Shown piece after piece: positions 7,892 to 59,800 of a stretch of 64,000 nucleotides of DNA. The stretch's first letter is position 1. Every line of letters begins with the position of its first letter. The position numbers and the translations under genes were made by a program. The stretch covers positions 32,001 through 96,000 of IMG/VR virus record IMGVR_UViG_3300030047_000014; one strand, given 5' to 3'. The notes under the pieces were generated by a model. That model was not told the DNA's origin and did not search any database. It saw only the letters and a program-made list of their open reading frames with translations. Source of the DNA: a virus.

Positions 7892-8368
7892 TTAAAGTTT
7901 ATTTAATTCATTTATATATGCTTGAGCAGCATCTTCTTCTTTATTAAATCTTCCTAAGAATTTATTCTTACCATCAATTCTTATTTCACTCCTCCATTTT
8001 TTACAAGAAGATTCCCAAGAAACTCCTGTAAATGTAGAAGTACTTATACTATCTTTAGAGTTATTAACTCTTTGAGTAACTATTTGAAGATTCTTATAGT
8101 AGTTATTTAACTTATTATTATCTCTATGATCAACTACTAAATATCTACCATCTCTCTTTTGATCAAGAAAATAATCAGCAACTAGCAGATGTATAAGTAA
8201 GTGAAACTTCTTACCATTTTTTGATAAATGTGCTTGCAAATAACCATCTCCAACAATACTAGGTTTAAGAAGTTTTCCTCTTTTGTTTTTAATTCCTCCA
8301 TAATTAGAGATTTGATAAAATCCTTCATAACCTAGTATATCTTTCCATTCTTCGTAATCTTTATACAT
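7892..8368 (-). CDS. NUMOD4-HNH-AP2 homing endonuclease
   Basis: EEWKDILGYEGFYQISNYG (NUMOD4), HLLVA...VDHRDNNKLNN..NLQ...N (HNH), FTGVSW..KKWRSEI...LGRF..EEDAAQAY (AP2). Confidence 0.9.
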   Translation of the reverse strand: MYKDYEEWKDILGYEGFYQISNYGGIKNKRGKLLKPSIVGDGYLQAHLSKNGKKFHLLIHLLVADYFLDQKRDGRYLVVDHRDNNKLNNYYKNLQIVTQRVNNSKDSISTSTFTGVSWESSCKKWRSEIRIDGKNKFLGRFNKEEDAAQAYINELNKL

Positions 8369-8960
8369 TATCTTGTAGATTTAAATAGTTCTGTTGTACC
8401 ATCTTTCTTATTAATCTTAGAATTCCACGTTTGGAACGATCATTCACAAGATTATTATCTAGAAATAGAAATTCATCTGAACTGAAGGATTTAGAAGAAT
8501 AATCAGAGTAGCATTCTCCTGTTTCAATATTGTAATATTTACTATTAAGAGAATAAATACATCCTCCTTGTAAATAAGGGGAGGCAAACTGTTCAAAGAT
8601 TACCTTCTCATCACCATTTTTATTAATAATGACAAAATGACCTGCTAAATGAGGTTTATCCTTCTTTATCTTAGTAATACTATCTTCATAATAGGATTCA
8701 ACATGTTTTAATAACATGAAATAATCAGCTTTCATATCAACACTATATCCTCCTATACGATAGAGAGTATTTCTTAGTTTACGCTCACCTAAATACAAAT
8801 GACAATAATCATCAAAAGAATGAACATTCCATCTCTTACGATATCTATCATCTAATTGAACATGTCTTAGATGTAAACCAGTAGTATCCTCAGGTTTAGT
8901 CTCTGTTAATATAGTAGCAAATAAACCTAATGCTGTAAAAAATCCATGTGTATTTCTCAT
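8361..8960 (-). CDS. Hypothetical protein (possible frameshift near the C-terminus)
   Basis: Likely start MRNTH (8960); beta-rich, aromatic sequence. Confidence 0.7.
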   Translation of the reverse strand: MRNTHGFFTALGLFATILTETKPEDTTGLHLRHVQLDDRYRKRWNVHSFDDYCHLYLGERKLRNTLYRIGGYSVDMKADYFMLLKHVESYYEDSITKIKKDKPHLAGHFVIINKNGDEKVIFEQFASPYLQGGCIYSLNSKYYNIETGECYSDYSSKSFSSDEFLFLDNNLVNDRSKRGILRLIRKMVQQNYLNLQDNV

Positions 8961-8998
8961 GATAATATAGAATCTAATTAATAATGTTAATATCAAAT

Positions 8999-9035
8999 AA
9001 AAAAGGTGCTCCTCTTATATAGAGAGAAACACCTT
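8999..9035 (-). terminator. Intrinsic terminator closing the tmRNA coding piece
   Basis: Minus strand AAGGTGTTTCTCT-CTATATA-AGAGGAGCACCTT followed by a T run. Confidence 0.8.
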
Positions 9036-9189
9036 AGTAAAAATGTACAACTCTAAGCTGCCATCTTCATTTCACTATTTTCGCCATTTACATGACAATA
9101 CCCATTTTATCAGTTAGTTATCTAAAATGATCTTTAGACTTCTATGATTAGAAACTACCATTTATCTGCTGTCAAAACCAGTCAGCCCC
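9000..9189 (-). ncRNA. ssrA: tmRNA coding piece (5' tRNA-like half plus tag reading frame) of a permuted two-piece tmRNA
   Basis: Starts GGGGCTGACTGGTTTTGACAGCAG at 9189; resume context TAAAT-GGC; tag GGC GAA AAT AGT GAA ATG AAG ATG GCA GCT TAG = GENSEMKMAA* at 9085-9053. Confidence 0.9.
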
Positions 9190-9199
9190 TAATAAATTT

Positions 9200-9452
9200 A
9201 AAAGTATGAAAGATAACATCTCTGTCTCCTTATTCAGTAATTGTGGTTATCTTAATGGTTGTCCTCTTGTGCACAGTTATCTCTAAGTTGAGCCTTTAGC
9301 TTACAATATTACTGATATACTTTCTATACTTTTTACTAATTGGCGATTAGTATGTGGAGTAGAAGTTTACTATATCTTGGCACTGGAGTTATCATGAATA
9401 ACCAGATATTAAAGAATACAATATTTGTCTTGCGAACAAATGAGCTTCTACT
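9200..9452 (-). ncRNA. Structured intervening segment between the tmRNA pieces (two folded domains)
   Basis: Closing stems AGTAGAAG/CTTCTACT (9452-9358) and AAAAGTAT-GAAAG/CTTTC-ATACTTTT (9333-9200) with internal helices; no minus-strand ORF in the track. Confidence 0.5.
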
Positions 9453-9454
9453 TT

Positions 9455-9517
9455 GTGGAGCTGAGGAGAATCGAACTCCTGTCCAAACAGTTTCCTTTAA
9501 TTTCAATGAATATTATA
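9455..9517 (-). ncRNA. ssrA: tmRNA acceptor piece (T-arm plus 3' acceptor strand) of a permuted two-piece tmRNA
   Basis: CTGTT-T-GGAC-AGGAG-TTCGATT-CTCCT-CAGCTCC-A; CAGCTCC pairs with GGGGCTG (G3.U70); CTGTT pairs with AGCAG; 5' end inferred from the promoter. Confidence 0.88.
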
Positions 9518-9523
9518 TTTTTA

Positions 9524-9531
9524 CAAAGATA
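9524..9531 (-). promoter_or_regulatory. Bacteroidota -7 promoter element upstream of the tmRNA acceptor piece
   Basis: TATCTTTG matches TAnnTTTG; no clean -33 TTTG seen. Confidence 0.55.
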
Positions 9532-9769
9532 TAACAAATTATTAGGACACCGCCTTCCCACGTCCAACCTTTTTGTAATATTAAAATGGTTGCAAAACTT
9601 ACTCCCTAAGTATTAAATTTGTGTCCAGGGCAATTATATCATTGACTGTTACTATTGCGTAGTAATTCAATAGATATTAAATATGTTTTTACAGGCTTTT
9701 TAAGCTCTCACATTCATAGTCGTCTCATAGCAGTTCTTTTTATTTAATATGACTATATAGTCATTGTTA

Positions 9770-9898
9770 TTAATCATCCATTTCATCCTCACTCTCATCC
9801 AGATATTCAGGGTCATAATCAGGACACCCATCATCTTCCCAATTTAACAAATCCATCTCAGTATCCTCAGATAGATAAAGCTTTCGAGATTTAATCAT
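9770..9898 (-). CDS. Small acidic protein (42 aa)
   Basis: MIKSRKLYLSEDTEMDLLNWEDDGCPDYDPEYLDESEDEMDD; ATGA overlap with the upstream ORF. Confidence 0.55.
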   Translation of the reverse strand: MIKSRKLYLSEDTEMDLLNWEDDGCPDYDPEYLDESEDEMDD

Positions 9899-9998: not shown

Positions 9999-11120
9999 CT
10001 AATCCTCCAACAAATAATCAGTATTAATGATAAGAGACAAATCTTCATTATATATCTGTAATTGTACAGGTATAAGCTTATCAATAAGCTCTTTGTCATT
10101 AAATGTGGTAAGCTTATGAGTGACACTATTTCCATTTATTTTGAGATAACCCTTTGATCGCCAAGCAGGTATATGTGTTCTTGCCTGAGACAATGGTAAT
10201 GTACGATAGTACACATAATGATCTGCATATCCTTTAGGTGCACCCTTAAAGGGAGCTAAGAATACTAACTGAAGGTTCTTAGTCCAATAGGACTGTTTAC
10301 CTGTCATTTGTAGTTTAGCTCTAGCCCAAGCACCTCCAAAATAAATAGAAAGTCTTTTCAAATAATCTTCCTTATTAAGATTAGGATACAGTTTCTCATA
10401 TGAAGAGAGATAATGATCTCTTTGTTCTAAAGGTATAATACCCTTCCAACCACTACTCATAAGTACTTTATAAGAATTCAACATCTCTACCATATCAGGA
10501 GCATACTTGATCATATTTTCAGATTCAATCAGGTATTCATAAATAAGAGCTGCAAGCTCATGATTAACCTTCTTAAATCTATCTGCATTCTCCATCTCAC
10601 TCTCAAGTATTACTCTAACAGAGCCATCAGGACATAGTATTTGAACAAGATTCTTGAAGTCATTTGAATAAGAATCAATATTTGCACTAATCATTGATTG
10701 ATTACCCTCAAGTGAGAATAATTCATAACCAGATGTATCTTCCACACGAATAACAATCTCCACACCATTAGGATAATATCTCTTTACTGCTTCAGATAAA
10801 CAAACCAGTCTTTGAATAGCAGATAGTTCTGCTATATCAATAGTAGCACTGAAATCACTCTTAATAGAGCCCCAGGGAACCATGATTGGTATTGCTGTAT
10901 TGTTGTTGATTGCCTCTCTTATTACATCTCTGATTACAACCAAGGATTCAGGTGTAGGCAAACAGCCATACCTTACCTCTTTTGTTCCTATTATCAGATT
11001 AGAGAGGATTTCAACTAAATCTGAGGAACTAAATGTAGCCACATTTGGAAATTGCTCATTAATGTGTAAGCATATCAAATCTCCATATGGCTCTTCAACT
11101 CCAATTATTCTTGTTTTCAT
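9999..11120 (-). CDS. PvcA/DIT1-like (isonitrile synthase family) protein
   Basis: AIPIMVPWGSIKS...IDIAELSAIQRLVCLSEAVKRYYPNGVEIVIRVEDTSG resembles the PvcA pattern PI.fvlPafP.KS...pDlAE.laL.rL..lc..i...YppGa.i.I.sDG. Confidence 0.65.
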   Translation of the reverse strand: MKTRIIGVEEPYGDLICLHINEQFPNVATFSSSDLVEILSNLIIGTKEVRYGCLPTPESLVVIRDVIREAINNNTAIPIMVPWGSIKSDFSATIDIAELSAIQRLVCLSEAVKRYYPNGVEIVIRVEDTSGYELFSLEGNQSMISANIDSYSNDFKNLVQILCPDGSVRVILESEMENADRFKKVNHELAALIYEYLIESENMIKYAPDMVEMLNSYKVLMSSGWKGIIPLEQRDHYLSSYEKLYPNLNKEDYLKRLSIYFGGAWARAKLQMTGKQSYWTKNLQLVFLAPFKGAPKGYADHYVYYRTLPLSQARTHIPAWRSKGYLKINGNSVTHKLTTFNDKELIDKLIPVQLQIYNEDLSLIINTDYLLED

Positions 11121-47869: not shown

Positions 47870-50800
47870 ATGCCTATAAATGATTTAAGTCCTTTGACTG
47901 AAAACATACTACCAACAAGTAGACCTCAATCTGTAGGTAACTCAATTCCTAATCCATATATGGAAGGTAGTGGTAATGGTGATAGTGGAAGTAAACGTCC
48001 TGATTACTTACCTCCTCTTGCTTCAGGAAAGGATGAGATGCCTATTACAGCAACCTCTGGACAGTTGCATGATGCAAGAAAGTTTTCTGTCTTTGATCCT
48101 ACAAAGACAGAGAATGAGTTTGCTTATGGACAAGGATTTGTTTCTAAGATGGTTAGTGGTGTTGGTAAGGGATTATTACTTACAGGTACTACATTTCTAC
48201 AGACTACTGCAGGATTAATAAATGGTTTATATCAATGGAATAAAACAGGGAAAGCATCTTCTTTCTATGATAATCCTCTTAATAAATGGGTAGATGATGT
48301 AAATGCAGAAGCTGAGAACAGATTACCTAATCTTTACACAAATATTGAGAAAGATGCTAATTGGTATTCTCCTAAATATTTATTAACAGGTAATTTCTTA
48401 TGGGATGGTATTGTAAAGAATCTTGGATTCTCTGCAGGTGCTGCATTGTCAGGAATGGCATTTGCAGGAGCTTTAAGAGCTCTTCCTCTTACATCTAAGT
48501 TATTCTCTATTGGTAAAGGAGCTGAAGCTCTTGCAGCCACAGAAGAAGGAGTATCAGCATCTACAGCAGCAGGTAATGCTGCAGAAACTTATGGAAAGAT
48601 CAAAGAGCAATCTGATAAATTCTTAGGATCATTTAAATTACTAAATCCTGGTGGTAGAGCTTTAATAGCAGGTTTATCTACTTCTGGAGAAGCTAGTTTT
48701 GAGTCATATCAGAATCTTAATCAATTCAGGAATGATGAAATAAAGAAATATCAAGATACACATGATGGAGAGAAACCTACTGGAGAGGATCTTAAGAAGA
48801 TTAATGATAATGCAGAACATGTTGGAAATGTGTCCTATCTGTCTAATGTGGCTCTTCTTAGTGTTACTAATTATATACAGTTTCCTAAAATATTAGGATC
48901 TTCTTATAAAGCTGAGAAGGGAATGATTAATTCCTTAACCAAAGAAACAGGAGATATAATTGGAACAGAAGGAAAATATCTTGTAAAGCCTGCAGGAAAT
49001 AAGATTCTCTCAACTCTAAATAAGATTAGACCCTATACATTCTCTACTTCAGAAGGATTTGAAGAGGGTGCACAGTATGTAATTCAGGAAGGTACTCAGA
49101 ACTACTATGATAAAAAGTATAATAATACTCCAACTGATTTTCTAACCAGTCTTTTAGAAGGAGTTAAAAAGACTGTTGGTACTAATGAAGGTATGAAGAA
49201 TATCTTAATTGGTGGATTATCAGGATCTATAATGATGGGTAGAGGAAGGTTCAGAGAAAATAGTGAGAAAGATAGAAATACTCAGGAAGCTGTTACAGCA
49301 TTCAATAAAACTAAATTTTCTGATTTTACTCAGGAAACATTAGATGCTGTTAATAGAGGAACAACTCTTCAGGAAGAGAGAGAAGCTGCTCTAAAGAGTG
49401 GTGATATACTAAATAGTAAAGATAAAGAAGCTGATTATATAATCAACTATCTTACACCACGTATTAAATATGGGAGGTTTGATTTAATTAAATCAGATAT
49501 ATCTGATTATAAACAACTTGCAAGCACTGATGAAGGTTTTGCTCAATTACAATCTGAAGGTAAAGCCTTAACAACAGATACTAAGGAAGCTTATATTCAG
49601 AGATTATCTGCATTAGAAGCTACTGCTGAGAATGTAAAATCATTATATCAATCTCTTAATCTTCGATATGGTGCACAAATAGATGAAAAAGGTAAACCTA
49701 TCTACTCTCCTGCAGTTATGGACAAGATGGTTTATGCAGCATCTAAAGTAGCTGACTATGATAAACGAATTCCAGAATTAACTAATACATTAATACAAAG
49801 TAATATTGATGTTAATGCTGTAGTTAAAGATGTACTATTGGGTAAATCAGACAGTTTTAATGAAGCTATGGATTCTATCAGCAAGATGGATATCTTAGAT
49901 GAAGAAAAAACTTCTCTTAGTGAAGCTTTGGAAGATATAAGTGAACTTAGTCTTCGTAGAAATAAATTTCTAAAAGAATATACTGAGATAAAGAACAATC
50001 CTAAAAAATATCAGGAACAAAAAGCAGAAGATATCCAACCTCCTGTTGGTGAAGAGAATAGGATAATTGCTATTAAAACTAAGACAGGAGATAAGGAATT
50101 AACTATTGGTAAGGAGTACTTTATAGGTAAGGGATTTGACTATGATAAAGATGGTCTGGAGACTCCTGTTACTATTTCTAAACTTACTATTCTTAGTGAG
50201 AATGAGGATGGTACAATCAAAGTAAAAGGAAATAATGGTAAAGTAATGGATATATCTAAGGATCAATTACTTGACTATAAAGTTACACCTGCTGAACAAT
50301 TAAAAGCTAATAAGACTGCTAATTATTTCTTTAATCATAGGAATGAGTTGTTTGAGATTAATTTGGGTAAGAAATATGGTGGAAAGAAAACTGGTAGAAT
50401 TGAATTCAAAGAAGGCAAACTCTTTATTGTATATAAAGGAGTTAATGGCAAACTTATTCACAAAGAGATAAATAATAGTTTCTTTGTTCCTCAAAAGGAA
50501 TATAATGAACCAAGAATCAGAATTACAGGTAAAATTGAAACTGCAGAACAGAAAGTAGCCAGGGAAGAATTCACTTCAGCAAAAGAATTAGAGGCACAGA
50601 AACAAACTGCTTCTCAGAATAGAGATACACGTATTGAAATTCTGACACAGTTGTTTGATGATATCTCTACTAAGCAGGAAGATACCAATAAGTTACTGAC
50701 TCAGAAGAAATCTGAATTAACAAATATTAAAGAGGAATTATCTAAACTTGAGGAGAATATCCTTAATACTCAGAATGATGTAGATAAGAGATTTAAAAAA

Positions 50801-53800
50801 GTAACTTTCAGAGCTACTACCAGAAAAGCATTAGCTACTGCTTCTCGTTTGTCCAGAATGCAAGATCAGTTAGAAAAAGAGATAAAAGATCTTGAGACTC
50901 AGAGAGAAGAGTTAGATATTGATTTGTCTTATATTTCTGATATGGCTCAGAATATTGATGAGCTTCCTACAGATAGTAAGGAGTTTCTTAATGAGCTGAA
51001 ATCTCATAAAGCATTATTGGAAGATATGCTTCTTAATACAGAAATTCAAATTGAGGAGACTAACAACATTATTAGCAAGGTAAAGGCAGCTTTAGATTCA
51101 GCTATGGATTTCTTATCAGATGTGATAGGTAAGTTTCAGCAGAAGTTTCCTAAAGTTCCGCTTGCTCTTGGTAGTGAATGGATTGAGTTTCTAAAAAATA
51201 ATCCTAACTTTCTTAAGCGTAAACCTAACTATAAGGAAGAATTACAACAGCTTGATGATTTAGTAGCTCAAGTTGAGGATATGGATATTATTCCTGGGGA
51301 GCGTACTATAAAAGAATTAAATGAGAAACTTGCAGAATTACAGGAAGCCTTATCTCCACTAGAAAGAGAATTAAAAGCAAGTAATGTTATATTGGATAGG
51401 TTTAGGGAAATTGCTAAAAAATCCAGGGAAGTAAAAGCTGAAGAGAAAGCTATGTCTGTAAAGGATGAGTTTTTAAAAAAGGCTCTTGGTACAGATAAGA
51501 GTGGTATCCAGAACAGAGAATTTGATAAGGATTATGAGCCTGAGGCTAAGAAGCCTACAGAGTTCATATGGAGAAGTACTATCACAACAGGAGATAAACC
51601 TCATGCCATTAGATCTAATAAATTTGGAGCTAATCTGAATTCATTTCCTAATAGAGATAAAATACGTGGGGTATATATAACTTTTAAAAATGAAGATCAG
51701 ATACTACCAGGATTAATTGATCATTTAAGGACAGATGAAAATGGTAATGTAGACAACTCTATAAATAGAGAGGATGTCATTGTATTAGTAATGACTGATG
51801 AGGATGGTAATCTGATTGATGAAAATGGTAAACTTGTACAGAATAATGCTGACAAATTAAATACAGCTATATATCAAGTATTTCCAGAAGCTAAATTAGC
51901 TTGGAGTGAAAAGTATGGTAATGCATCAATGTTTAGGAAAGATACTCCTCAAGATGTAGTGGACTCTGTTAAGAAACAGTATGCTGATTGGAGAAAAGAT
52001 ATTTTAGAGAACACAACTGATTTAAGTAATAGTCATACTATTGATGCCTCTTTTGGATTTCCTGAGTATGAAACTGAACTGGATGAAAATCAAGTACCAC
52101 AGAGGATTTATTCTACTAAGACATCTGTACAAGAAGCAGGTTTGGTTACTGAAGATGAATTAGAAGCTTCTCCAGTAATTACTATTCCTACAACCAATAG
52201 TATTGTTGGTAAGGGCACTGTTTCCTTTACTAATGCTATTGGTAAAGTATTTCTTGAATTAAAGAATGGTCTGATACCACTACAGAATAGAAAACATACT
52301 AGTGAAGAGGCAGAGTTAATATATCAGTCTATCTATCACTTAGCTAAGAATATGCTTAAAGGTGAACTTAAGTCTGATGCTTCTGAGAACTTATTTAATT
52401 ATCTTCGATCAGTAGTCTATTGGGGAATTCCTACAGATCAACAAGGTAATAGAAAAGAGACTAAAGGATATAATAGTATCTTCTGGGAGAAAGATCCTGT
52501 ATCTGGAAAGTTCATGTTATCAATGTCAGGAAAAGGAATGAACTTTGTATTCACTCCTTCTGCACTGGAACAATATAAAGCAGATATAATTGCTATGTTA
52601 GAGGGGATGTATAATAACATTAACTCCTCTATGATTAAAGGTAATAATGCTATTAATGAGAAATATCATGAACCATTATCTATAAATGCTGATGGTACTT
52701 TCAATACAAGAGAATGGAATAACTACCAGACTTATTTGTTATCAAGTACAACTCCTGATGGTAAACCACGTAAAAACATTCCTCTTACTACATTAATGAA
52801 ACCTCTTGCTAATAAGGAAGATGTAAATAGAAAAGGAATATATTTTTATACTACTGATACAGCAGATGATATTGTTCTTCCTACTAAAAAACCTTTAGCA
52901 GCATCTAAAATGCTTCCAGGTAAATTACAGGAAGCTCTACAGAAAACACAAAAGTTTGTATTAGGTAGAAATAATTTAAATATATTTACTACAGATGCAG
53001 GAAAACAATTAAAGTTTATAGTTAGTGAGAAAGTTAATGCTAATAACTTTATGCAGGAGATTAGTATTCTTCAAGGCGGTGATCTTGTAGAATTAATGGA
53101 TATTATTAAAAAAGCAGGATTAGATCCTGCAAAGGTTCTTAAAAGACGTATATTTAAAGCACTTGAGCCTCAATTAAATGATACAAATACTGAAGAGAAA
53201 GAAGATATCTTTAGAGTTCCTGATGATGAGGATGATACTAAAATACCTACACAGAAAGATAATAGAAAAACATCTAATGAAGATGATGAAGAGATGGAAG
53301 TCTTTCATGTTCCAGATGATATAGATGAGGATATTAAGAAGGCTTTAAATCGTGTGTCTAATGATTCTGATTTAGCAGCAACTCGTCTTGTTTTAAAACA
53401 GATGTTAGATGATTATAAAGAAGAGGACTGGACTAAAATAGAACAATGGTTAAGAAATAATTTTCCTAACTTTCCTTTCTATAGGGTAAAGAATGTAATC
53501 CAGGTTACTAATGGAAGACAAGCTTGGGGTATGTTCAAACAGGCTGCTTTGTATGTATATCAACATGCAGAATCAGGTACATCATATCATGAGGTCTTTC
53601 ATGCAGTATGGAGGATGTTCGTAGGTCCAGATGAACAATCTGCTATTGAAGATGAATTCACTTCCAGAAAAGGTAGTTTTATTGATAGAGCTACACAGAA
53701 GACAATAAAATACTCAGATGCTAATGCTAAAGAAATAGATGAGAAATTAGCAGAAGAATTTAGAAATTATATTCAGGAAGGTAAAATCCCTGGTAAACCA

Positions 53801-56800
53801 GAGAAAGGAAGACCATTTATTCTTAAAATGTTTATAGACTTGGTAAAGTTTATTAAAACCTTCTTTGTTGGAAATGAAGGTATTAGTAATACAGAAAATC
53901 TATTTAAGCATATAAATGAGGGATACTATAAAAAAGTAATTCCTTACACAGCAAGTTTATCCTTGGCTAATAAAGGTATAATAAATATTAATAATGCAAT
54001 TGCTACTACAGAAGACAATCTCAGTGTAGTATCTATCACAGATAAACAACGTAGTGATATTATTCAGGAAATGACTTATCAAACTCTCAAGGAATTGATA
54101 GAGTCTGATAAGAGTTTATTTACTGTTCCTAATTTAAAGAAATCAGAATTATATAGTAGACTGAAATCCAAGTTACTAGATACTCTTAGTAGAGATATAA
54201 AGAATTCTAAGAAACTAATTGCTAAAGGAGAATTTACAGAGAATCAATTAGCTCCTTTAATGTATGAACGTCTTTCATTAATGCAAAATGTTGCTACACA
54301 ATGGGATGCTATAGTTGCTAAGCATCAGGAGTATCTTAGGGGATATTCTATTGAGTTTGATGATAATGATAGTCTTCAGATAAATGATGAGGATAAGATC
54401 AAAAATAGTGATTTTGTAGATGCTACTAAAATAGATAGCTTTAAGAAAGCTAATAGTGCTATTAAACTACTCCTGGCAACTTTACCAAAGGTAGATGGAA
54501 ATAATAGATTAATACCATCTTCTATTGGTGGAGCACAATTACTCCCTATAAGTCAGACCTATATTAGTCTGATGAATAGGTTATATAACTCTAAGAGTAT
54601 TGAAGATATGATGTCCAGACTTAAGGATATGGCTACTAATGATGTAAATTACAGAACATTATACAAACGTCTTACTAAATCAGACTGGAAAACTAAAGGA
54701 ATAGATATTAGTAAGATCAATACTACTTATGGTGCACAACTCCTTGGTTCTTTCTGGAAGACATTCAAGAAACAAAATCCAGATGTAAAGAATGTATTTA
54801 TATTTGAGAATGGTGAGATAGTTATAGGAGATAGTAATTTATCGAGTGTAGCTAGTCAACTTAGAAATGAATATATTAATGACATTATCCTAACAGCAAA
54901 GAAGGATAATAGTTATTTTAAATATGATGAAAAGGAAAAAGTATTCAGAGGAGATGCTGTTGCTATCAAAAATGTAAAACTAGATACATTAACATCCTAC
55001 TCAGAATTTCTTAATAAACTTGGTATTGTATTTACTGTACCTCAGATCCAGAAATTAGGTTCTCATCTAAAAGATTTCAAGGAGACTGTTTCAGGTATAC
55101 GAGCTAGTATTGCTGCAAATGAAAAAATTGCAACATTTTCTGGTAAGGTTTTAAATATTAATGGTCGTCTGCTTGAACTTGGTATTGCTAAAGCAGTTAT
55201 TGATAATCCTGAATTTGATAGTACTTTCTTTAATGTTACTGGTGAACGTACTCAATCATTTATTGGTGTTAATCCTGCTGATGCCTTATATAACTTTCTC
55301 TCTTCAATTGAGAAATTTGATGATGCTAATGTTCTTGACAGCGAATATAGATATCTTAAAACAGATGCTTTCGCAAAAGGTTCCAATATTCTACAAAGAA
55401 TGTTTACTTCTGAAGGTACACGTAAACATGGTTCTGAGGATCTTATGAAAGTAGGGTATGTTAGTGGTACTATTGATGAGAAGAAAGGTAAACAGAAAGC
55501 ATCTGCCAGATTAAACTATAAAGAAAGACTTATTCAGGAGATCAATCTTAATCTAAAAGGATGGTATCTTAATTTAGTTCCTGCTGATGCAACTATGGAG
55601 TGGATGCTTAATACTGGGAATGCTATATCAGTAGCCTCTATATCTAAAGGACTTTCTGATGTAAATGCTATCTTTAAGAATTACTTCATCTCCGAGATGG
55701 ATCTTGTTAAGGATAATAGGAAGATCAATAGCCATAGAGATGCTAAGGAAGCAAAAGAAATGAGGTTCTTTAAATCTATTCTTGGAGAAGAACTACATAA
55801 TAAGATAGTTAAAGATAAAAGAGACTCTGAAGAAATATATGCTGATTATGAATCTAAGATAAACTCTGCCCTGGAGAAATATATTAATAATGAAACTTCT
55901 AAGTTTCAGAAGAATTTAACTACTTGGGGAGTATTAACTGAGGATGATCTTGGTCATACCTTGGAGAATATTAATCTTCCAGAGAATATGTCTATGGAAG
56001 AATTAGTTAGACAATTGAAAGCTCTTACAATTAATTTTATGATTTCTAATATTGAAATGCATAAACTACTGTATGCAGATCCTTATCAATACTATCAGGA
56101 ATTAAAACGTATTAAGAACTTCAATTCACCTAGGCAGACTCTTATTAATAACTCTCCTCAGATGAATGCAGTATTTAATTCTGTTTGGAATGAGAATTAT
56201 AAAAAAGGAGATATTGGATATACTAACTTTCGTCAAGATTACTTTAGATCAGCTACTCATAAAGATACCTTTGGGGTAATTGATTTACTTGGATATACAG
56301 ATTTTGAAGAGACGGATGGTGCAGGTATTATTGGAATGAGAGCATATCGCCAGTTTAGAATTAGAAGTGGAGATTGGAACGATAATGAAGAAAGTCAATA
56401 TAGGTATGATATAGCCTGGGAGAAGAGAGATAAAGATTTTTCATTGTCTGCCAGTGAGGTAGCATTATTAGAAAAAGGAAATCCTGCTATTCAAAGTGCA
56501 TATGTTAATATTAAACCTATTGTAGCAGGTAATAGACTGAATAGTAAGGGAAATGCAAATGATATCAATGATGTCTTATTGGATAAGTTTGCTCTATATC
56601 CTCTATCATATCGTATTATGAAAGAGATAAATCCTAATGCAAATGCTATAAAGCTTTATGATAAAATGCAGAAGGAAGATATTGATTATATGGTATTTGA
56701 GAAAAGTAGAGTAGTAGGTGCAAGAGATCCTCATGATACATATAATGCTGATGGTTCTTTTAATACTAAGCCATATTCCGGGGAGAATGTGATCAATGTA

Positions 56801-59800
56801 CCTTTTAGTATCATGAGTGTACAATCTGAAGTACCATCAAAAGAGAAAGCTCTTACTACACGTGGATCCCAGATTACAAAACTTGTAACTATGGACTTTA
56901 TGGAAGCAGGTGTTCCACTTGATTTTGATAAAGAAAGTAGTTTCTTAAATAGATATAAGGCTTGGTATAAACTATCTGAAGATCAGAAATTAGCAACTTC
57001 TCCTTTATATAAAGATATAATGAATAATCAGGATCTCCTTGAGTTAATGATGGAGCATGGTTATCAAACTCTTCTTAATAGGTTGGGTATCAAGGAAAGT
57101 AATGGTAAATTTAGTATTGAAGATTTATCCGATGCTGTTTCTACTCTTAGGGAGGAAGTATTAAAAAGAGAAGTAAATGACAACATTAGTGATGCTCTTA
57201 CAGGTTTCTTGGAGGGTCAGTCTATTCTTGAGGCTACTCCTGCGTATCAGCAGATAAGGAATATTCTTTATTCAATTGCTGATAAAGAGATTATATCCCC
57301 TAAAATTAGTGGAGGTATGAAAGTACAAATTCCTTCTACAATGATGGAATCTGTTAGAGCAGAAGAAACTACTATTAATGGTAAGAGAGGATTTACCTCT
57401 GACTTCCTAAACTTCTATAAAGATGAAGATGGAAAGAGAGTATGTGAAATAATGATAGGTAGATGGTTTAAGAGTAGTATGTCTGATGCTGAGTTACTTG
57501 ACTATTTGAATAACTCAGAAGAAGGTAAATCTATTCTATCTGGTTTAGGATTTCGTATTCCTACCCAGAAACAGAACTCAATCGATAATTTTGTTATTAA
57601 ACAATTCCTTCCTAAAGAGTTTGGTGATTCTGTTGTTATACCTGCAGCACTTGTACAGAAAGCAGGATCTGACTTTGACATTGATAAATTATCAGTCTAC
57701 TTAAAAAACATCTTCAAAGATGTCAATGGAGACATTAGATTAGTTTCATACAAAGGATCTGAGAAAGCTACTAAGGATTATTATAGTGAAGTATTCTCGG
57801 ATAAAATTGAGAAACAAATAGAAAACCTTGAGAAACAGGATGATAAGAATGACATGATAATGGATGTCATGAGTAAGCTAGAAACTCTTCCAGATATCAC
57901 TATATCTTCAGCTAAAGCTGTATTGGGTAAAGAGGAATATCATTTCTATGCTAATAACTTAGATCTACTTTATGATATACTTGAAAGAGCTGATGAACAG
58001 GAGATTTCTGGTACTGAGTATATTCAGGGCAGATTAAATGAGTCTGGTGAGAAGAAAGCAGAATTATTTACAAAACTATTACTTGAGGATTTAAGAAAAG
58101 GGTACATAGATAGGATGTATAAAAAATCCTTAGAGAATGCTTATATTCAATCCTCTCAGAATCTCGTATCTCATAAGCTTAATTTTGACAAGCTTATTAA
58201 ACCTAACTCTGCAGACCAAATGAAGAAATTATCAGCAGAGATTGCAAAGAAGACTCTAGGTTCTACTTTTGATTATAATGATGTAGGTAATATGCTAGAT
58301 AGGGGATTTATGTCCAGACTTAGACATGCTTTTGTATCTGGTAAGTATGCTATTGGTATAGCCGCTGTAAATCAGACTAATCATTCCCTGAATCAAAGAC
58401 AACCTATCTACATTGATAAAAATAGATTCAATAAGCTTAGTGAGGAAGATAAGTACTGGTTAGTAGATGGTGAAGTAAGATTTGATAAATTTAATAGAAT
58501 TGAAGTTAATGGTAAGATAGTACCTACATTATCTATGATTAAGAATGTAGATGGTCAGTATATATCTGATATCATCTCTCAGTTTATTGATGGATATGTG
58601 GATATTGCTAAAGGTCCTTGGATTATGGAATTAGGAGCTACACCTAATGTTGCTTCAACCTTTATGTTCCTGGCTAAATTAGGAGTTCCTATTGATACTG
58701 TATCTTATTTTATGAATCAACCTATTATTCGTGATTATCTATCTAAGATTAGTAATGCAGGGTACTCATGGTTATTCATTGATAATTTCGTTGAGGAGTT
58801 AAAACAAGATGCTAAATGGTCTGTTGATGATCGTAAGGAAGCTGATTTAGAAACAGTTGGATTTAAAGGGATGGGTTTAAATCAAATTCCTAGTAAATCT
58901 ACATTAAAAAATAATATTGGGAAAGAGGATTTTAATGCACAGGAGAGATTAGAACAACGCTTTATTCTTCAGGAATTTCTAAAGTATGCTAAGATGGCTG
59001 AGCATATGTTCTTGGTTACACAGGGATCTAATTTTGATACTGCTAACTTCAACGATCCATATCTTGTATTTAAGAAATTTAAACAGTTAGAGAAGGCTCA
59101 GAATACAATCATTAGTGATGTGAATACTCTTTTGAATAACTCTTTCGTAGGACAGCTTAGTGAGACTATTAAGAAAACAAGAAATGCTTTGGCTACTATT
59201 CTTAAATCAGATCAGGATAATGTTAGAAGAGTTATTCAGAAAGTATTGGAGCCTTATGTCAATATGAACAATAATGACTTTGTTAAACTTGCTCAGAAGG
59301 CTGTTAATGATTTATTTGACTGGGCTGTTCAAACAGGAGATGAGAAGTTAAATGCTGATATTCGTAATGTATTGATTACTAATGGTGGTGTGGGTGCAGA
59401 AGTTATGGAGTTTGTAAATAGTATTAAAGTTAATTCTTCTCATCCTCTGCATGATAATCATGTCATTAATATTATACAGGCAATACCATCACCAAGGGCA
59501 GAACAAGGAGGAGTTAATAATCTGAAAGTAAAAGGTACAGACAATAAGGTTTATGACCAGAATAATATTATATATGGGTTTAGAGAGATAAGAGAGTATT
59601 TAAAAGACAAAAATAGTAAGTTATATGATAGGATTAAATTACTTGCTGTATTACAGAGTGGTTTGTCTAATTCAGCTATTTCCTTTACCTCACTTCTACC
59701 ATATGAAGATTTTGCAGAATTATATAATAAAACTTTGTCTAGTTTAGAGAAACTTCCTAATTTAGAGGAGTTTTTCAAGCTTGGTGTGTTTGAGAGAAAT

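What the first reader, a model, noticed from the sequence alone, without database searches (positions are those of the whole stretch)
9000..9531. Circularly permuted, two-piece tmRNA in a crAss-like phage, with an altered tag (A)GENSEMKMAA
Seen, minus strand, in order: a TAnnTTTG promoter (9531-24); an acceptor piece with GGAC, T-arm AGGAG-TTCGATT-CTCCT, CAGCTCC and discriminator A (9456); a 265-nt spacer; a coding piece starting GGGGCTGACTGGTTTTGAC (9189); a possible pseudoknot; the tag ORF at 9085-9053; a terminator. The two pieces pair in trans: a 7-bp acceptor stem with the G3.U70 alanine identity pair, AGCAG/CTGTT, and TAGTTTC/GAAATTA. Full CCA is not encoded. The tag frame is followed almost at once by the terminator, leaving no room for PK2-4. 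Known: permuted two-piece tmRNAs are best known from Alphaproteobacteria, some cyanobacteria, some Betaproteobacteria and mitochondria, while Bacteroidota tmRNAs are typically one-piece with tags like GENNYALAA. Inference: the 5' end and GEN- tag start look Bacteroidota-derived, so this may be an independent permutation in a phage. The tag keeps the C-terminal AA degron but changes the middle. It could rescue stalled ribosomes or replace a host tmRNA cleaved by defence RNases, using host SmpB (no smpB in the window).
Basis: partly seen in the sequence, partly recalled or inferred. Interest (0 to 1): 0.93.

Follow-up and report, generated by a model that had tools for sequence, protein, structure and literature searches.

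The report
Two-piece tmRNA gene in peat phage
A 121-kb phage from peat carries a genuine "back-to-front" (two-piece) ribosome-rescue RNA gene that standard finders miss because its two halves lie unusually far apart, but it belongs to a large set of similar phage genes rather than being a one-off.

Summary
On the minus strand an acceptor piece (GGAC 9484, discriminator A 9456), a 266-nt spacer, a coding piece (from 9189), the tag frame GENSEMKMAA (9085-9053) and a terminator (9035-9003) stand as described. ARAGORN and Rfam at gathering thresholds report nothing. RF04321 tmRNA_permuted scores 38.6 bits (cut-off 47, E 6e-6). ARAGORN calls a permuted tmRNA with this same tag once the spacer is cut to 240 nt or less in silico. 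Fifty other distinct permuted-order genes were found in phage records. Examples are L036 (tag GENSYEMKMAA, 16-nt spacer), L059 (syntenic, terminase 78% identical) and the GenBank Maribacter phage Panino. Helices covary. The 5' end is Bacteroidota-type, yet none of 103 bacterial tmRNAs sharing it is permuted. An independent assembly spans the locus. Two points are weaker: the promoter motif is at chance level and the pseudoknot is untested. Two-piece phage tmRNAs are already published (PMC9004378). This is a new member of a known kind, with a long spacer, a compact form and a distinctive ...MKMAA tag. Expression and function remain unshown.

The parts
9524..9531 (-). TATCTTTG, a Bacteroidota-type -7 box look-alike upstream of the acceptor piece
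   Evidence: Present. The motif is not enriched in the window: 90 against 84.8 expected. It lies upstream of only 8 of 51 permuted genes. The flanking TTTGTAAA..AATATAAT resembles the upstream region of the syntenic homolog L059.
9456..9512 (-). Acceptor piece. It holds the 3' strands of P2 (9512-9505, 9504-9498, 9490-9484), GGAC 9484-9481, the T-arm 9480-9464, the acceptor 3' strand CAGCTCC 9463-9457 and discriminator A 9456. Its 5' end is not mapped.
9190..9455 (-). 266-nt intervening spacer that would be removed on processing. It starts CAA, so CCA is not encoded.
   Evidence: No Rfam family matches it. Its fold z-score is -0.92. It holds no terminator-like site. It has no similarity to the 242-nt spacer of L045. 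The homolog L036 has only 16 nt here.
9171..9189 (-). 5' end of the coding piece: acceptor 5' strand GGGGCTG 9189-9183, then the D-loop analogue ACTGGTTTTGA, ending at C9171, which pairs in P2a
   Evidence: The 23-mer from 9189 is found exactly in at least 120 GTDB genomes, and 79 of the 80 listed titles are Bacteroidota.
9099..9171 (-). P2 5' strands (CAGCAG 9171-9166; TAGTTTC 9157-9151; AATGGGTA 9106-9099) with two predicted hairpins between them. This is the PK1-analogue region; a pseudoknot is not shown.
   Evidence: P2a is supported by covariation. The distal helices come only from energy models.
9053..9085 (-). Tag reading frame GGC GAA AAT AGT GAA ATG AAG ATG GCA GCT TAG, which reads (A)GENSEMKMAA*
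   Evidence: ARAGORN makes this tag call. Compared with L036 (GENSYEMKMAA) there are two synonymous changes, a stop-to-stop change and an in-frame 3-nt indel. L387 reads GENSLEMKMAA.
9038..9069 (-). Predicted hairpin enclosing the stop codon, analogous to helix 5
   Evidence: MFE fold only.
8996..9035 (-). Intrinsic terminator (13-bp stem, T-run) that ends the coding piece
   Evidence: 1 found against 0.1 expected.

Best explanation
This is a genuine circularly permuted (two-piece) tmRNA gene (ssrA) carried by a 120.7-kb, tRNA-less, SD-less, distant crAss-like phage from peat. The host is probably a member of the Bacteroidota. The proposed mechanism is inferred, except where marked as shown. 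One transcript runs from about 9517 to the terminator at about 8996. Its two ends of tRNA-like sequence pair across the 266-nt spacer, forming a 7-bp acceptor stem with G3.U70, a T-arm and P2 (the pairing potential is shown). Host RNase P cuts 5' of G9189. Host 3'-processing enzymes remove the spacer back to A9456, and the host CCA-adding enzyme completes CCA, as for host tmRNA genes that also read ...CTCCACAA (shown). This yields an acceptor piece of about 60 nt and a coding piece of about 190 nt, held together by base pairing. Host AlaRS charges the RNA. Host SmpB and EF-Tu deliver it to stalled ribosomes. Translation resumes at GGC 9085 and adds (A)GENSEMKMAA. The form is compact, with no PK2-4. 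The tag keeps the AA end but replaces the host-type YALAA with EMKMAA. This feature is shared with related phage genes, so it is selected rather than accidental. The long spacer is a tolerated insertion at a position that varies from 16 to 308 nt in the family.
For: RF04321 tmRNA_permuted aligns both halves with E 6e-6 and 1.4e-7 genome-wide. ARAGORN calls tmRNA* with tag GENSEMKMAA in 6 of 6 in-silico versions whose spacer was cut to 40-240 nt, and calls nothing at the native length. Fifty other distinct permuted-order genes were found in phage records, and ARAGORN calls tmRNA* in 37 of the 51 including the window. Examples are L036 (tag GENSYEMKMAA), L387/L419/L437/L426 (...MKMAA), and the syntenic L059 in a phage with 78% identical terminase (R1 56.2 bits, RF04321 46.2 bits). 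L352 (terminase 43% identical) and L010/L046 (32%) are further cases. Covariation on 17 genes: 95.4% of 306 cells are paired against 81.6 +/- 1.4 in shuffles (0 of 500 reach it). Ten of 18 pairs change on both sides, and slid registers give 48-61%. On 51 genes the T-stem is paired in 254 of 255 cells (shuffled 185 +/- 5) and P2a in 276 of 306 (249 +/- 4). The acceptor stem forms in trans in the free cofold, with ddG -15.0 against -8.0 +/- 3.1 (7 of 200 shuffles as low). The tag differs from L036 only by synonymous or stop-to-stop changes and an in-frame indel, while the flanks are unalignable. The 5' 23-mer is identical to at least 120 bacterial tmRNA genes. A 7,275-nt contig from another peat sample covers 8900-9551 with no differences. 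No terminator-like site lies inside the spacer.
Against: The gene is below Rfam's gathering score (38.6 against 47) and is not called by ARAGORN as it stands. My own model R1 did not bridge the spacer and scored only the acceptor piece (28.8 bits, E 0.003). No RNA evidence exists. The one RNA run laid matched only 83 nt of the spacer (9226-9308, 3 differences) plus a weak 36-nt stretch at 9200-9235 (6 differences), and no part of either tmRNA piece. The promoter motif is at chance level. Acceptor-stem invariance in the alignment is partly forced by the search patterns; only position 5:68 was free there. In one search the 5' piece was required to complement that position. Among 80 terminase relatives only 2 loci carry any tmRNA (L059 permuted, L060 one-piece), so the gene is accessory. 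By my count from the table, 38 of those 80 loci reach 6.7 kb or more upstream of the terminase gene. PK1 is unverified. No SmpB, integrase or CCA-adding enzyme is encoded, so function depends wholly on an unknown host.
Confidence: 0.8

Rival explanations
1. A decaying relic. A formerly compact permuted tmRNA gene (like L036, 16-nt spacer) was hit by an insertion of about 250 nt. This now prevents co-folding or correct processing, so the RNA is no longer made in working form.
For: The spacer is the second longest of 51. The closest tag homolog has 16 nt. The gene falls below both standard detectors. The syntenic homolog L059 has an aberrant T-loop (CTCGTTA) and a D-loop analogue without GG, which hints at relaxed constraint in this phage clade. 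No expression data exist.
Against: Every functional element is intact and canonical: G3.U70, the TTCGATT T-loop, a 5' 23-mer identical to bacterial genes, an in-frame tag and a terminator. Spacer length varies continuously from 16 to 308 nt in the family, and L045 (242 nt) is still called by ARAGORN. The two pieces act in trans after processing, so spacer length should matter little. No terminator lies in the spacer.
Confidence: 0.12
2. It is a working RNA but not a tagging one. It would be a tRNA-like decoy or regulator that titrates host SmpB/AlaRS or senses stalled ribosomes, as proposed for the TLD-only RNA of mycobacteriophage DS6A.
For: Phage TLD-only tmRNA-like genes exist, and a similar molecule inhibits tmRNA (PMC4131195 and PMC11915505, passages read). 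The tag C-terminus departs from the host-type ALAA.
Against: The tag frame is conserved at the codon level across unrelated phages, with synonymous changes and an in-frame indel. The resume-codon context (A-rich, then GGC) and the AA-stop end are kept. A decoy would not need these.
Confidence: 0.05
3. It is not a gene at all. It would be an attP-type 3' tmRNA fragment left by integration into a host ssrA, sitting by chance near a 5'-like fragment, or an assembly mis-join.
For: Of 55 IMG/VR loci matching the 3' pattern, 17 showed no 5' piece under my first pattern, and several of these lie at contig ends, as att fragments would. One of the 17, L036, later proved to be a permuted gene. Phages commonly integrate into ssrA (PMC4383910, abstract in a search listing only).
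Against: No tyrosine integrase is found in the genome. The complementary 5' strand, tag and terminator follow in the order seen in 50 other genes. A contig from another sample spans 8900-9551 without a difference. The locus lies mid-genome, at 41.0-41.5 kb of 120.7 kb.
Confidence: 0.03

Closest known systems
Permuted tmRNA of Maribacter phage Panino (GenBank PP540027, feature PANI_tmRNA0001)
   Same: The gene order is the same (acceptor piece, spacer, coding piece). The tRNA-like domain is similar (80% identity over 70 nt; P2a CAGCAG/CTGTTTG identical). The host phylum is Bacteroidota. ARAGORN calls tmRNA* and RF04321 scores 63.9 bits.
   Different: Panino has a 39-nt spacer against 266, and the tag GKVMNVSFAPTVRQFA. 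Its gene sits in a cluster of tRNA genes, whereas this phage has none. The phage is unrelated: no terminase match. The paper on Panino mentions a tmRNA but not its permutation, in the passages I read (PMC11590407).
Two-piece tmRNAs of marine phages (Melnitz, pelagimyophages, cyanophages; PMC9004378)
   Same: These are phage-borne permuted ssrA genes without smpB, placed behind a promoter. Possible roles proposed there are maintaining the hijacked translation machinery or selective tagging (passages read).
   Different: Those are alphaproteobacterial or cyanobacterial in type. This one has a Bacteroidota-type 5' end. Its homologs score below the cut-offs of the clade models: alpha 29.9 and 20 bits against 50, cyano 30.2 against 70. 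No riboswitch is found here.
Bacterial two-piece tmRNAs (Alphaproteobacteria, a betaproteobacterial lineage, some cyanobacteria; Rfam RF04321, RF01849-51)
   Same: The tRNA-like domain is assembled in trans from a permuted gene, and a spacer is excised. The shared core model RF04321 matches at E 6e-6.
   Different: This gene is carried by a phage. It lacks PK2-4, because the tag is followed at once by a terminator. The spacer is far longer than the model's loop. The score is below the gathering cut-off.
One-piece Bacteroidota tmRNA (tags GENNYALAA and the like)
   Same: The 5' 23-mer is identical. The resume codon is GGC and the tag starts GEN. The 3' end reads ...CTCCACAA, without encoded CCA.
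   Different: Those are standard-order genes of about 400 nt with pseudoknots. None of 103 ARAGORN calls is permuted. Their tags end YALAA rather than EMKMAA.
One-piece tmRNA of a sister phage (L060, terminase 77% identical)
   Same: It lies in the same region, upstream of the terminase gene on the opposite strand, behind the same TATCTTTG motif.
   Different: It has the standard order (RF00023 78.5 bits), a different acceptor stem (GGGCCCG) and a 26-residue tag. It is therefore a separate acquisition, not an ortholog.

Membership tests
tmRNA (ssrA) | tRNA-Ala-like acceptor stem with a G3.U70 pair and discriminator A | tested here: met
   GGGGCTG (9189-9183) pairs with CAGCTCC (9463-9457), with G3.U, and A9456 follows. 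Position 5:68 covaries in 17 of 17 genes.
tmRNA (ssrA) | T-arm with a canonical T-loop, and a D-loop analogue with GG | tested here: met
   AGGAG/TTCGATT/CTCCT is present. ACTGGTTTTGAC is identical to bacterial genes. The T-stem is paired in 254 of 255 cells over 51 genes.
tmRNA (ssrA) | Short tag reading frame without a start codon, resuming after an A-rich stretch and ending in hydrophobic residues plus AA and a stop | tested here: met
   GENSEMKMAA* is called by ARAGORN. Codon-level conservation is seen with L036 and L387.
tmRNA (ssrA) | Reaches the curated detection thresholds (Rfam gathering score; ARAGORN call) | tested here: not met
   RF04321 scores 38.6 against 47, RF00023 scores 25.7 against 47, and ARAGORN finds 0 genes. 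The shortfall is explained by the 266-nt spacer.
tmRNA (ssrA) | Pseudoknots PK1-PK4 | tested here: not met
   There is no room for PK2-4: 17 nt separate the stop from the terminator. PK1 is only a candidate. Reduced forms are known among two-piece and organellar tmRNAs, so this feature is not disqualifying (PMC11915505, passages read).
tmRNA (ssrA) | Alanylation, SmpB binding and trans-translation | not testable with these tools
   No smpB is found in the genome. The host is unknown.
Permuted / two-piece tmRNA | The 3' (acceptor) half is encoded upstream of the 5' (coding) half on one strand | tested here: met
Permuted / two-piece tmRNA | The precursor is cleaved into two RNAs held together by base pairing | not testable with these tools
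   Pairing potential is shown. No RNA data cover the pieces.
Alpha-, beta- or cyanobacterial permuted lineages (RF01849, RF01850, RF01851) | Match to the clade-specific model above its gathering score | tested here: not met
   None is listed for the window at E up to 10; two lower-scoring overlapping same-clan matches were left out of that table and not named. Homologs score alpha 29.9 and 20 against 50, and cyano 30.2 against 70.
crAss-like phages (Crassvirales and relatives) | Terminase, portal and major capsid homologous to crAss-like phages, in a genome of about 100 kb with giant virion proteins | tested here: inconclusive
   The terminase is 27-30% identical to Bacteroides, Cellulophaga and Flavobacterium crAss-like phages, and the best isolate hit is Leptolyngbya phage Lbo-JY46 at 38.6%. 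PHROG terminase, portal and head families match. The 4,228-aa ORF has no PHROG match. The virion RNA polymerase motif was not examined.

The most novel reading that the evidence does not exclude
The window's gene may belong to a phage-restricted lineage of two-piece tmRNAs that has not been described. The lineage would have arisen from the one-piece Bacteroidota tmRNA, as a further independent permutation beside the alpha, beta, cyano and mitochondrial ones. It has been stripped to a minimal form: tRNA-like domain, P2, tag and terminator, without PK2-4. It spreads among unrelated phages, from crAss-like phages of about 120 kb to a 316-kb jumbo contig. Its tags have converged on ...[EQ]M[KR]M[AV]A in place of the host's ...YALAA. 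This suggests that phages re-route rescued proteins, for example away from or towards a particular host protease, rather than merely topping up host tmRNA.
Probability: 0.4. Interest if true: 0.65.

Novelty: new member of a known kind. Interest (0 to 1): 0.45.

Why it matters
First, this is a concrete false negative of standard annotation. ARAGORN stops finding permuted tmRNAs when the spacer is somewhere above 240 nt, and the merged Rfam model drops below its cut-off. ARAGORN missed 14 of the 51 permuted-order genes collected here, so phage tmRNA counts are underestimates.

Second, it extends tmRNA carriage to environmental crAss-like phages. Sister phages carry either a permuted or a one-piece gene at the same place, which indicates repeated acquisition and hence a selective benefit.

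Third, the family offers a natural minimal two-piece tmRNA with a non-canonical tag end. This could be used to ask what a phage gains from trans-translation and how tag sequence steers proteolysis in Bacteroidota.

None of this changes the known principle.

Tried and rejected
- **Spacer as a functional RNA.** There is no Rfam match and the fold z-score is -0.92. It has no repeats elsewhere in the genome. It shows no similarity to the long spacer of L045: local score 20 against 20.2 +/- 2.7 in shuffles. MAFFT's apparent alignment of the two spacers is spurious.
- **Small ORF in the spacer.** An AAGGAG-N7-ATG 15-codon ORF (9219-9172) exists, but the phage does not use SD sites: 4 of 94 ORFs against a 12% background. 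I set it aside.
- **Promoter.** TAnnTTTG is at chance level. A scan for the shared upstream motif returned 46 IMG/VR loci, none followed by an acceptor piece. I had also set the gap too short to include L059.
- **Synteny.** The flanking ORFs (8361-8996, 9999-11120) have no homologs in 80 terminase-relative loci, so no clean insertion boundary could be defined.
- **Tag pattern searches.** GTDB genomes gave 0 hits. Two metagenome-contig scans also gave 0. No host with this tag was found. These scans need exact pattern matches and leave out records near the window.
- **Long-spacer pattern in IMG/VR.** 0 hits.
- **RNA evidence.** Run X24 covered only 9200-9308, inside the spacer, and then runs on unlike the window. 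It says nothing about expression of the pieces.
- **Model R1.** It did not bridge the spacer in the window.
- **ARAGORN artefact.** Run without -l on a 651-nt excerpt, ARAGORN reported a 'standard' tmRNA wrapping around the ends, an artefact of assumed circularity.
- **Phylogeny.** I did not attempt a tree of the tRNA-like domains, because only about 70 positions are alignable.
Full report
**What is in the sequence.**
- TATCTTTG lies at 9531-9524.
- The acceptor piece holds GGAC (9484-9481), a T-arm AGGAG/TTCGATT/CTCCT (9480-9464), CAGCTCC (9463-9457) and discriminator A9456. It is followed by CAA, not CCA.
- A 266-nt spacer follows (9455-9190).
- GGGGCTGACTGGTTTTGAC lies at 9189-9171.
- The frame GGC...GCT TAG lies at 9085-9053.
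- A 13-bp-stem intrinsic terminator lies at 9035-9003. It is the only terminator-like site in 8800-9800, against 0.1 expected.
- Only 17 nt separate the stop from the terminator stem, so PK2-4 cannot be present.

**Detectors.** ARAGORN finds no tRNA or tmRNA in the window or in the whole 120,747-base virus record. Rfam at gathering thresholds finds nothing. With E-value reporting, the merged permuted model RF04321 aligns both halves of the tRNA-like domain across the spacer. It scores 38.6 bits against a cut-off of 47, with E 6e-6 on 1.2 kb and 1.4e-7 on the genome. As a control, a script removed the middle of the spacer. In 6 of 6 versions with 40-240 nt left, ARAGORN called a permuted tmRNA with tag GENSEMKMAA. 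The silence of the standard tools is therefore due to spacer length, not to a defective gene.

**Structure.** The unconstrained two-strand fold contains the 7-bp acceptor stem with G3.U70 in trans, plus the T-arm. The interaction energy is -15.0 kcal/mol against -8.0 +/- 3.1 for shuffled acceptor pieces, and 7 of 200 shuffles are as low. When the two comparatively supported helices are enforced, the fold costs 2.6 kcal/mol more. It also gives a further helix, AATGGGTA/TATTCATT (9106-9099 with 9512-9505), ending 13 nt before the resume codon. These distal helices are energy predictions only, and in the free fold TAGTTTC pairs elsewhere. A classical H-type pseudoknot can be drawn by eye in 9138-9109, but nothing supports it.

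**Relatives.** Pattern scans of IMG/VR, the INPHARED phages and the flanks of 80 terminase relatives gave, with the window, 51 distinct genes in the same permuted order.
- Spacers run from 16 to 308 nt. The window's is the second longest.
- ARAGORN of the 51 as permuted.
- One is already in GenBank: Maribacter phage Panino (tmRNA*, RF04321 63.9 bits).
- The closest tags are in L036, from a 316-kb contig (GENSYEMKMAA, 16-nt spacer), and in L387 (GENSLEMKMAA). L437, L419, L426, L330/L344 and L350 also end in ...(M)KMAA.
- Between the window and L036 the tag differs by AAG/AAA, GCA/GCT, TAG/TAA and an in-frame TAT, while the flanks cannot be aligned. That is the signature of selection on the peptide.

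**Covariation.** On 17 genes, chosen with patterns that left the variable positions free, 95.4% of 306 cells pair. Column shuffles give 81.6 +/- 1.4% (0 of 500 reach the observed value) and slid registers give 48-61%. Ten of 18 pairs change on both sides. Over all 51 genes the T-stem pairs in 254 of 255 cells, with 20 different stem sequences, and P2a pairs in 276 of 306. Both are beyond every one of 1,000 partner shuffles. One caveat applies. Six of the seven acceptor pairs were fixed by my search patterns, and the 5' piece was required to complement position 68.

**The phage and its kin.**
- The terminase matches crAss-like phages of Bacteroides, Cellulophaga and Flavobacterium at 27-30% identity. 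The best isolate hit is a Leptolyngbya phage at 38.6%. PHROG terminase, portal and head families match. 'Distant crAss-like' is therefore fair but not firm.
- The genome has no tRNA, no SmpB, no tyrosine integrase and no CCA-adding enzyme.
- GC is 31.7%, and SD-like motifs precede only 4 of 94 ORFs.
- Together with the tmRNA sequence this fits a Bacteroidota host, which remains unidentified.
- Among 80 terminase-relative loci, two carry a tmRNA. By my count from the table, 38 of the 80 reach at least 6.7 kb upstream of the terminase gene.
  - L059 (78% terminase identity) has a permuted gene at the syntenic place. It shows a similar upstream TTTGTAAA..AATATAAT, a 97-nt spacer, a tag I read as GNTVEMNRQSFRMAA, and a terminator. 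Its T-loop is odd (CTCGTTA).
  - L060 (77%) has a standard one-piece tmRNA behind the same TATCTTTG motif (RF00023 78.5 bits).
- More distant terminase relatives also carry permuted genes: L352 at 43% and L010/L046 at 32%.
- The flanking genes are not conserved. The locus lies in a variable accessory region and has been filled more than once.

**Origin.** The first 23 nt of the coding piece occur exactly in at least 120 GTDB species genomes, and 79 of the 80 listed titles are Bacteroidota. ARAGORN finds a tmRNA in 103 of those 120 loci. All are standard-order, mostly with tags like GENNYALAA, and none is permuted. Bacteroidales genes also read GGC GAA AAT... at the resume site and ...CTCCACAA at the 3' end. 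Homologs of the window's gene fall far below the cut-offs of the alpha and cyano models. However, the permutation is shared by many phages and did not arise in this one. Whether it arose once or several times was not resolved.

**Assembly.** The stretch is held by several peat metagenome runs. A 7,275-nt contig from a sample not flagged as the source covers 8900-9551 with no difference. The run may belong to the same sampling campaign. A mis-join is unlikely.

**Mechanism (inferred).** A single precursor folds its two ends together. Host RNase P, 3' trimming and CCA addition release an acceptor piece of about 60 nt and a coding piece of about 190 nt. Host AlaRS, SmpB and EF-Tu then use the pair for trans-translation, adding (A)GENSEMKMAA. 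Only the pairing potential, the selection on the tag and the dependence on host factors rest on results here. Why phages keep such genes is open. Published suggestions are maintenance of the hijacked translation apparatus, selective tagging, or sensing of stalled ribosomes (PMC9004378 and PMC7162821, passages read). The recurrent replacement of YALAA by [EQ]M[KR]M[AV]A in this phage family suggests an altered fate of tagged proteins. That is speculation.

**Literature.**
- Two-piece tmRNAs in phages are in print: 53 of 133 unique phage tmRNAs were two-piece by ARAGORN, mostly marine (PMC9004378, passages read).
- The 2025 tmRNA database lists 79 phage sequences and describes three main bacterial permuted clades (PMC11915505, passages read).
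- The 2014 survey lists only one-piece phage genes and a TLD-only one (PMC4131195, passages read).
- The Panino paper mentions a tmRNA but no permutation in the passages found (PMC11590407).
- Searches for tmRNA with 'crAss-like', with 'permuted' and 'phage', with 'permuted' and 'Bacteroidetes', and for 'two-piece tmRNA' with 'phage' returned no paper describing a Bacteroidota-type or crAss-like-phage permuted tmRNA.

**Verdict.** This is a real and probably functional two-piece tmRNA gene: a new member of a known kind. It is notable for its long spacer, which defeats the standard finders, for its minimal architecture, and for membership in a sizeable, little-noticed phage family with a distinctive tag. 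Interest is moderate.

Noticed in passing
L060:1784-2186 (-): A phage with 77% identical terminase carries a standard one-piece tmRNA (RF00023 78.5 bits) with a 26-residue tag, AKTRSQRVAEGEAILASIFQTEAVAA. It sits about 8 kb upstream of the terminase gene on the opposite strand, behind the same TATCTTTG motif as the window's gene.
   Followed up: partly
L059:4516-4795 (-); same contig as L375, and also L333: This is the syntenic permuted tmRNA in the closest terminase relative. Its T-loop reads CTCGTTA and its D-loop analogue lacks the GG. It scores 46.2 bits, just under Rfam's cut-off of 47, and ARAGORN misses it. It may be a co-varied tertiary contact or a decaying gene.
   Followed up: partly
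window 9226-9308 (spacer): A 352-nt contig of a soil metatranscriptome run (X24) matches these 83 nt with 3 differences and then continues unlike the window. I could not tell what shares this segment.
   Followed up: no
window 9172-9219 (-): AAGGAG, then 7 nt, then ATG opens a 15-codon ORF (MLSFILLNLLGADWF) that runs from the spacer into the start of the coding piece. It is probably chance, since SD-like motifs precede only 4 of 94 ORFs in this genome.
   Followed up: partly
window 7892-8368 (-): An HNH endonuclease gene (PHROG 59/99/959, E down to 2e-29) lies two genes downstream of the tmRNA locus. No link to the spacer insertion was found.
   Followed up: no
L013, L017, L021, L022, L028, L031, L034, L035, L041 and others: Another set of IMG/VR contigs carries short (about 325-363 nt) one-piece tmRNAs. 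Several of these contigs are about 100-115 kb. Their tags are long and related, such as ANMNKVFSLIREEVAVAA, and the tRNA-like domain is like that of the permuted family.
   Followed up: no
window 47870-60556 (+): A 4,228-aa ORF has no PHROG match. The neighbouring 1,809-aa ORF matches virion structural protein families (phrog_37948, E 3e-110).
   Followed up: no
whole genome G000: ARAGORN finds no tRNA genes in 120.7 kb, whereas the nearest isolate by terminase (Leptolyngbya phage Lbo-JY46) has 19 annotated tRNA genes upstream of its terminase gene.
   Followed up: partly
L347:5273-5610 (-), L373, L329/L361/L372: These are further permuted-order genes with long spacers (308, 218 and 193 nt) that ARAGORN does not call. 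Long-spacer forms are therefore systematically under-annotated.
   Followed up: partly
X8 contig record 8: A 253-nt peat contig matches the 5' piece (9168-9195, 3 differences) and the tag end (9051-9072, 1 difference), with 92 rather than 95 nt between them. It is a closer relative of the coding piece than any locus I could fetch.
   Followed up: no
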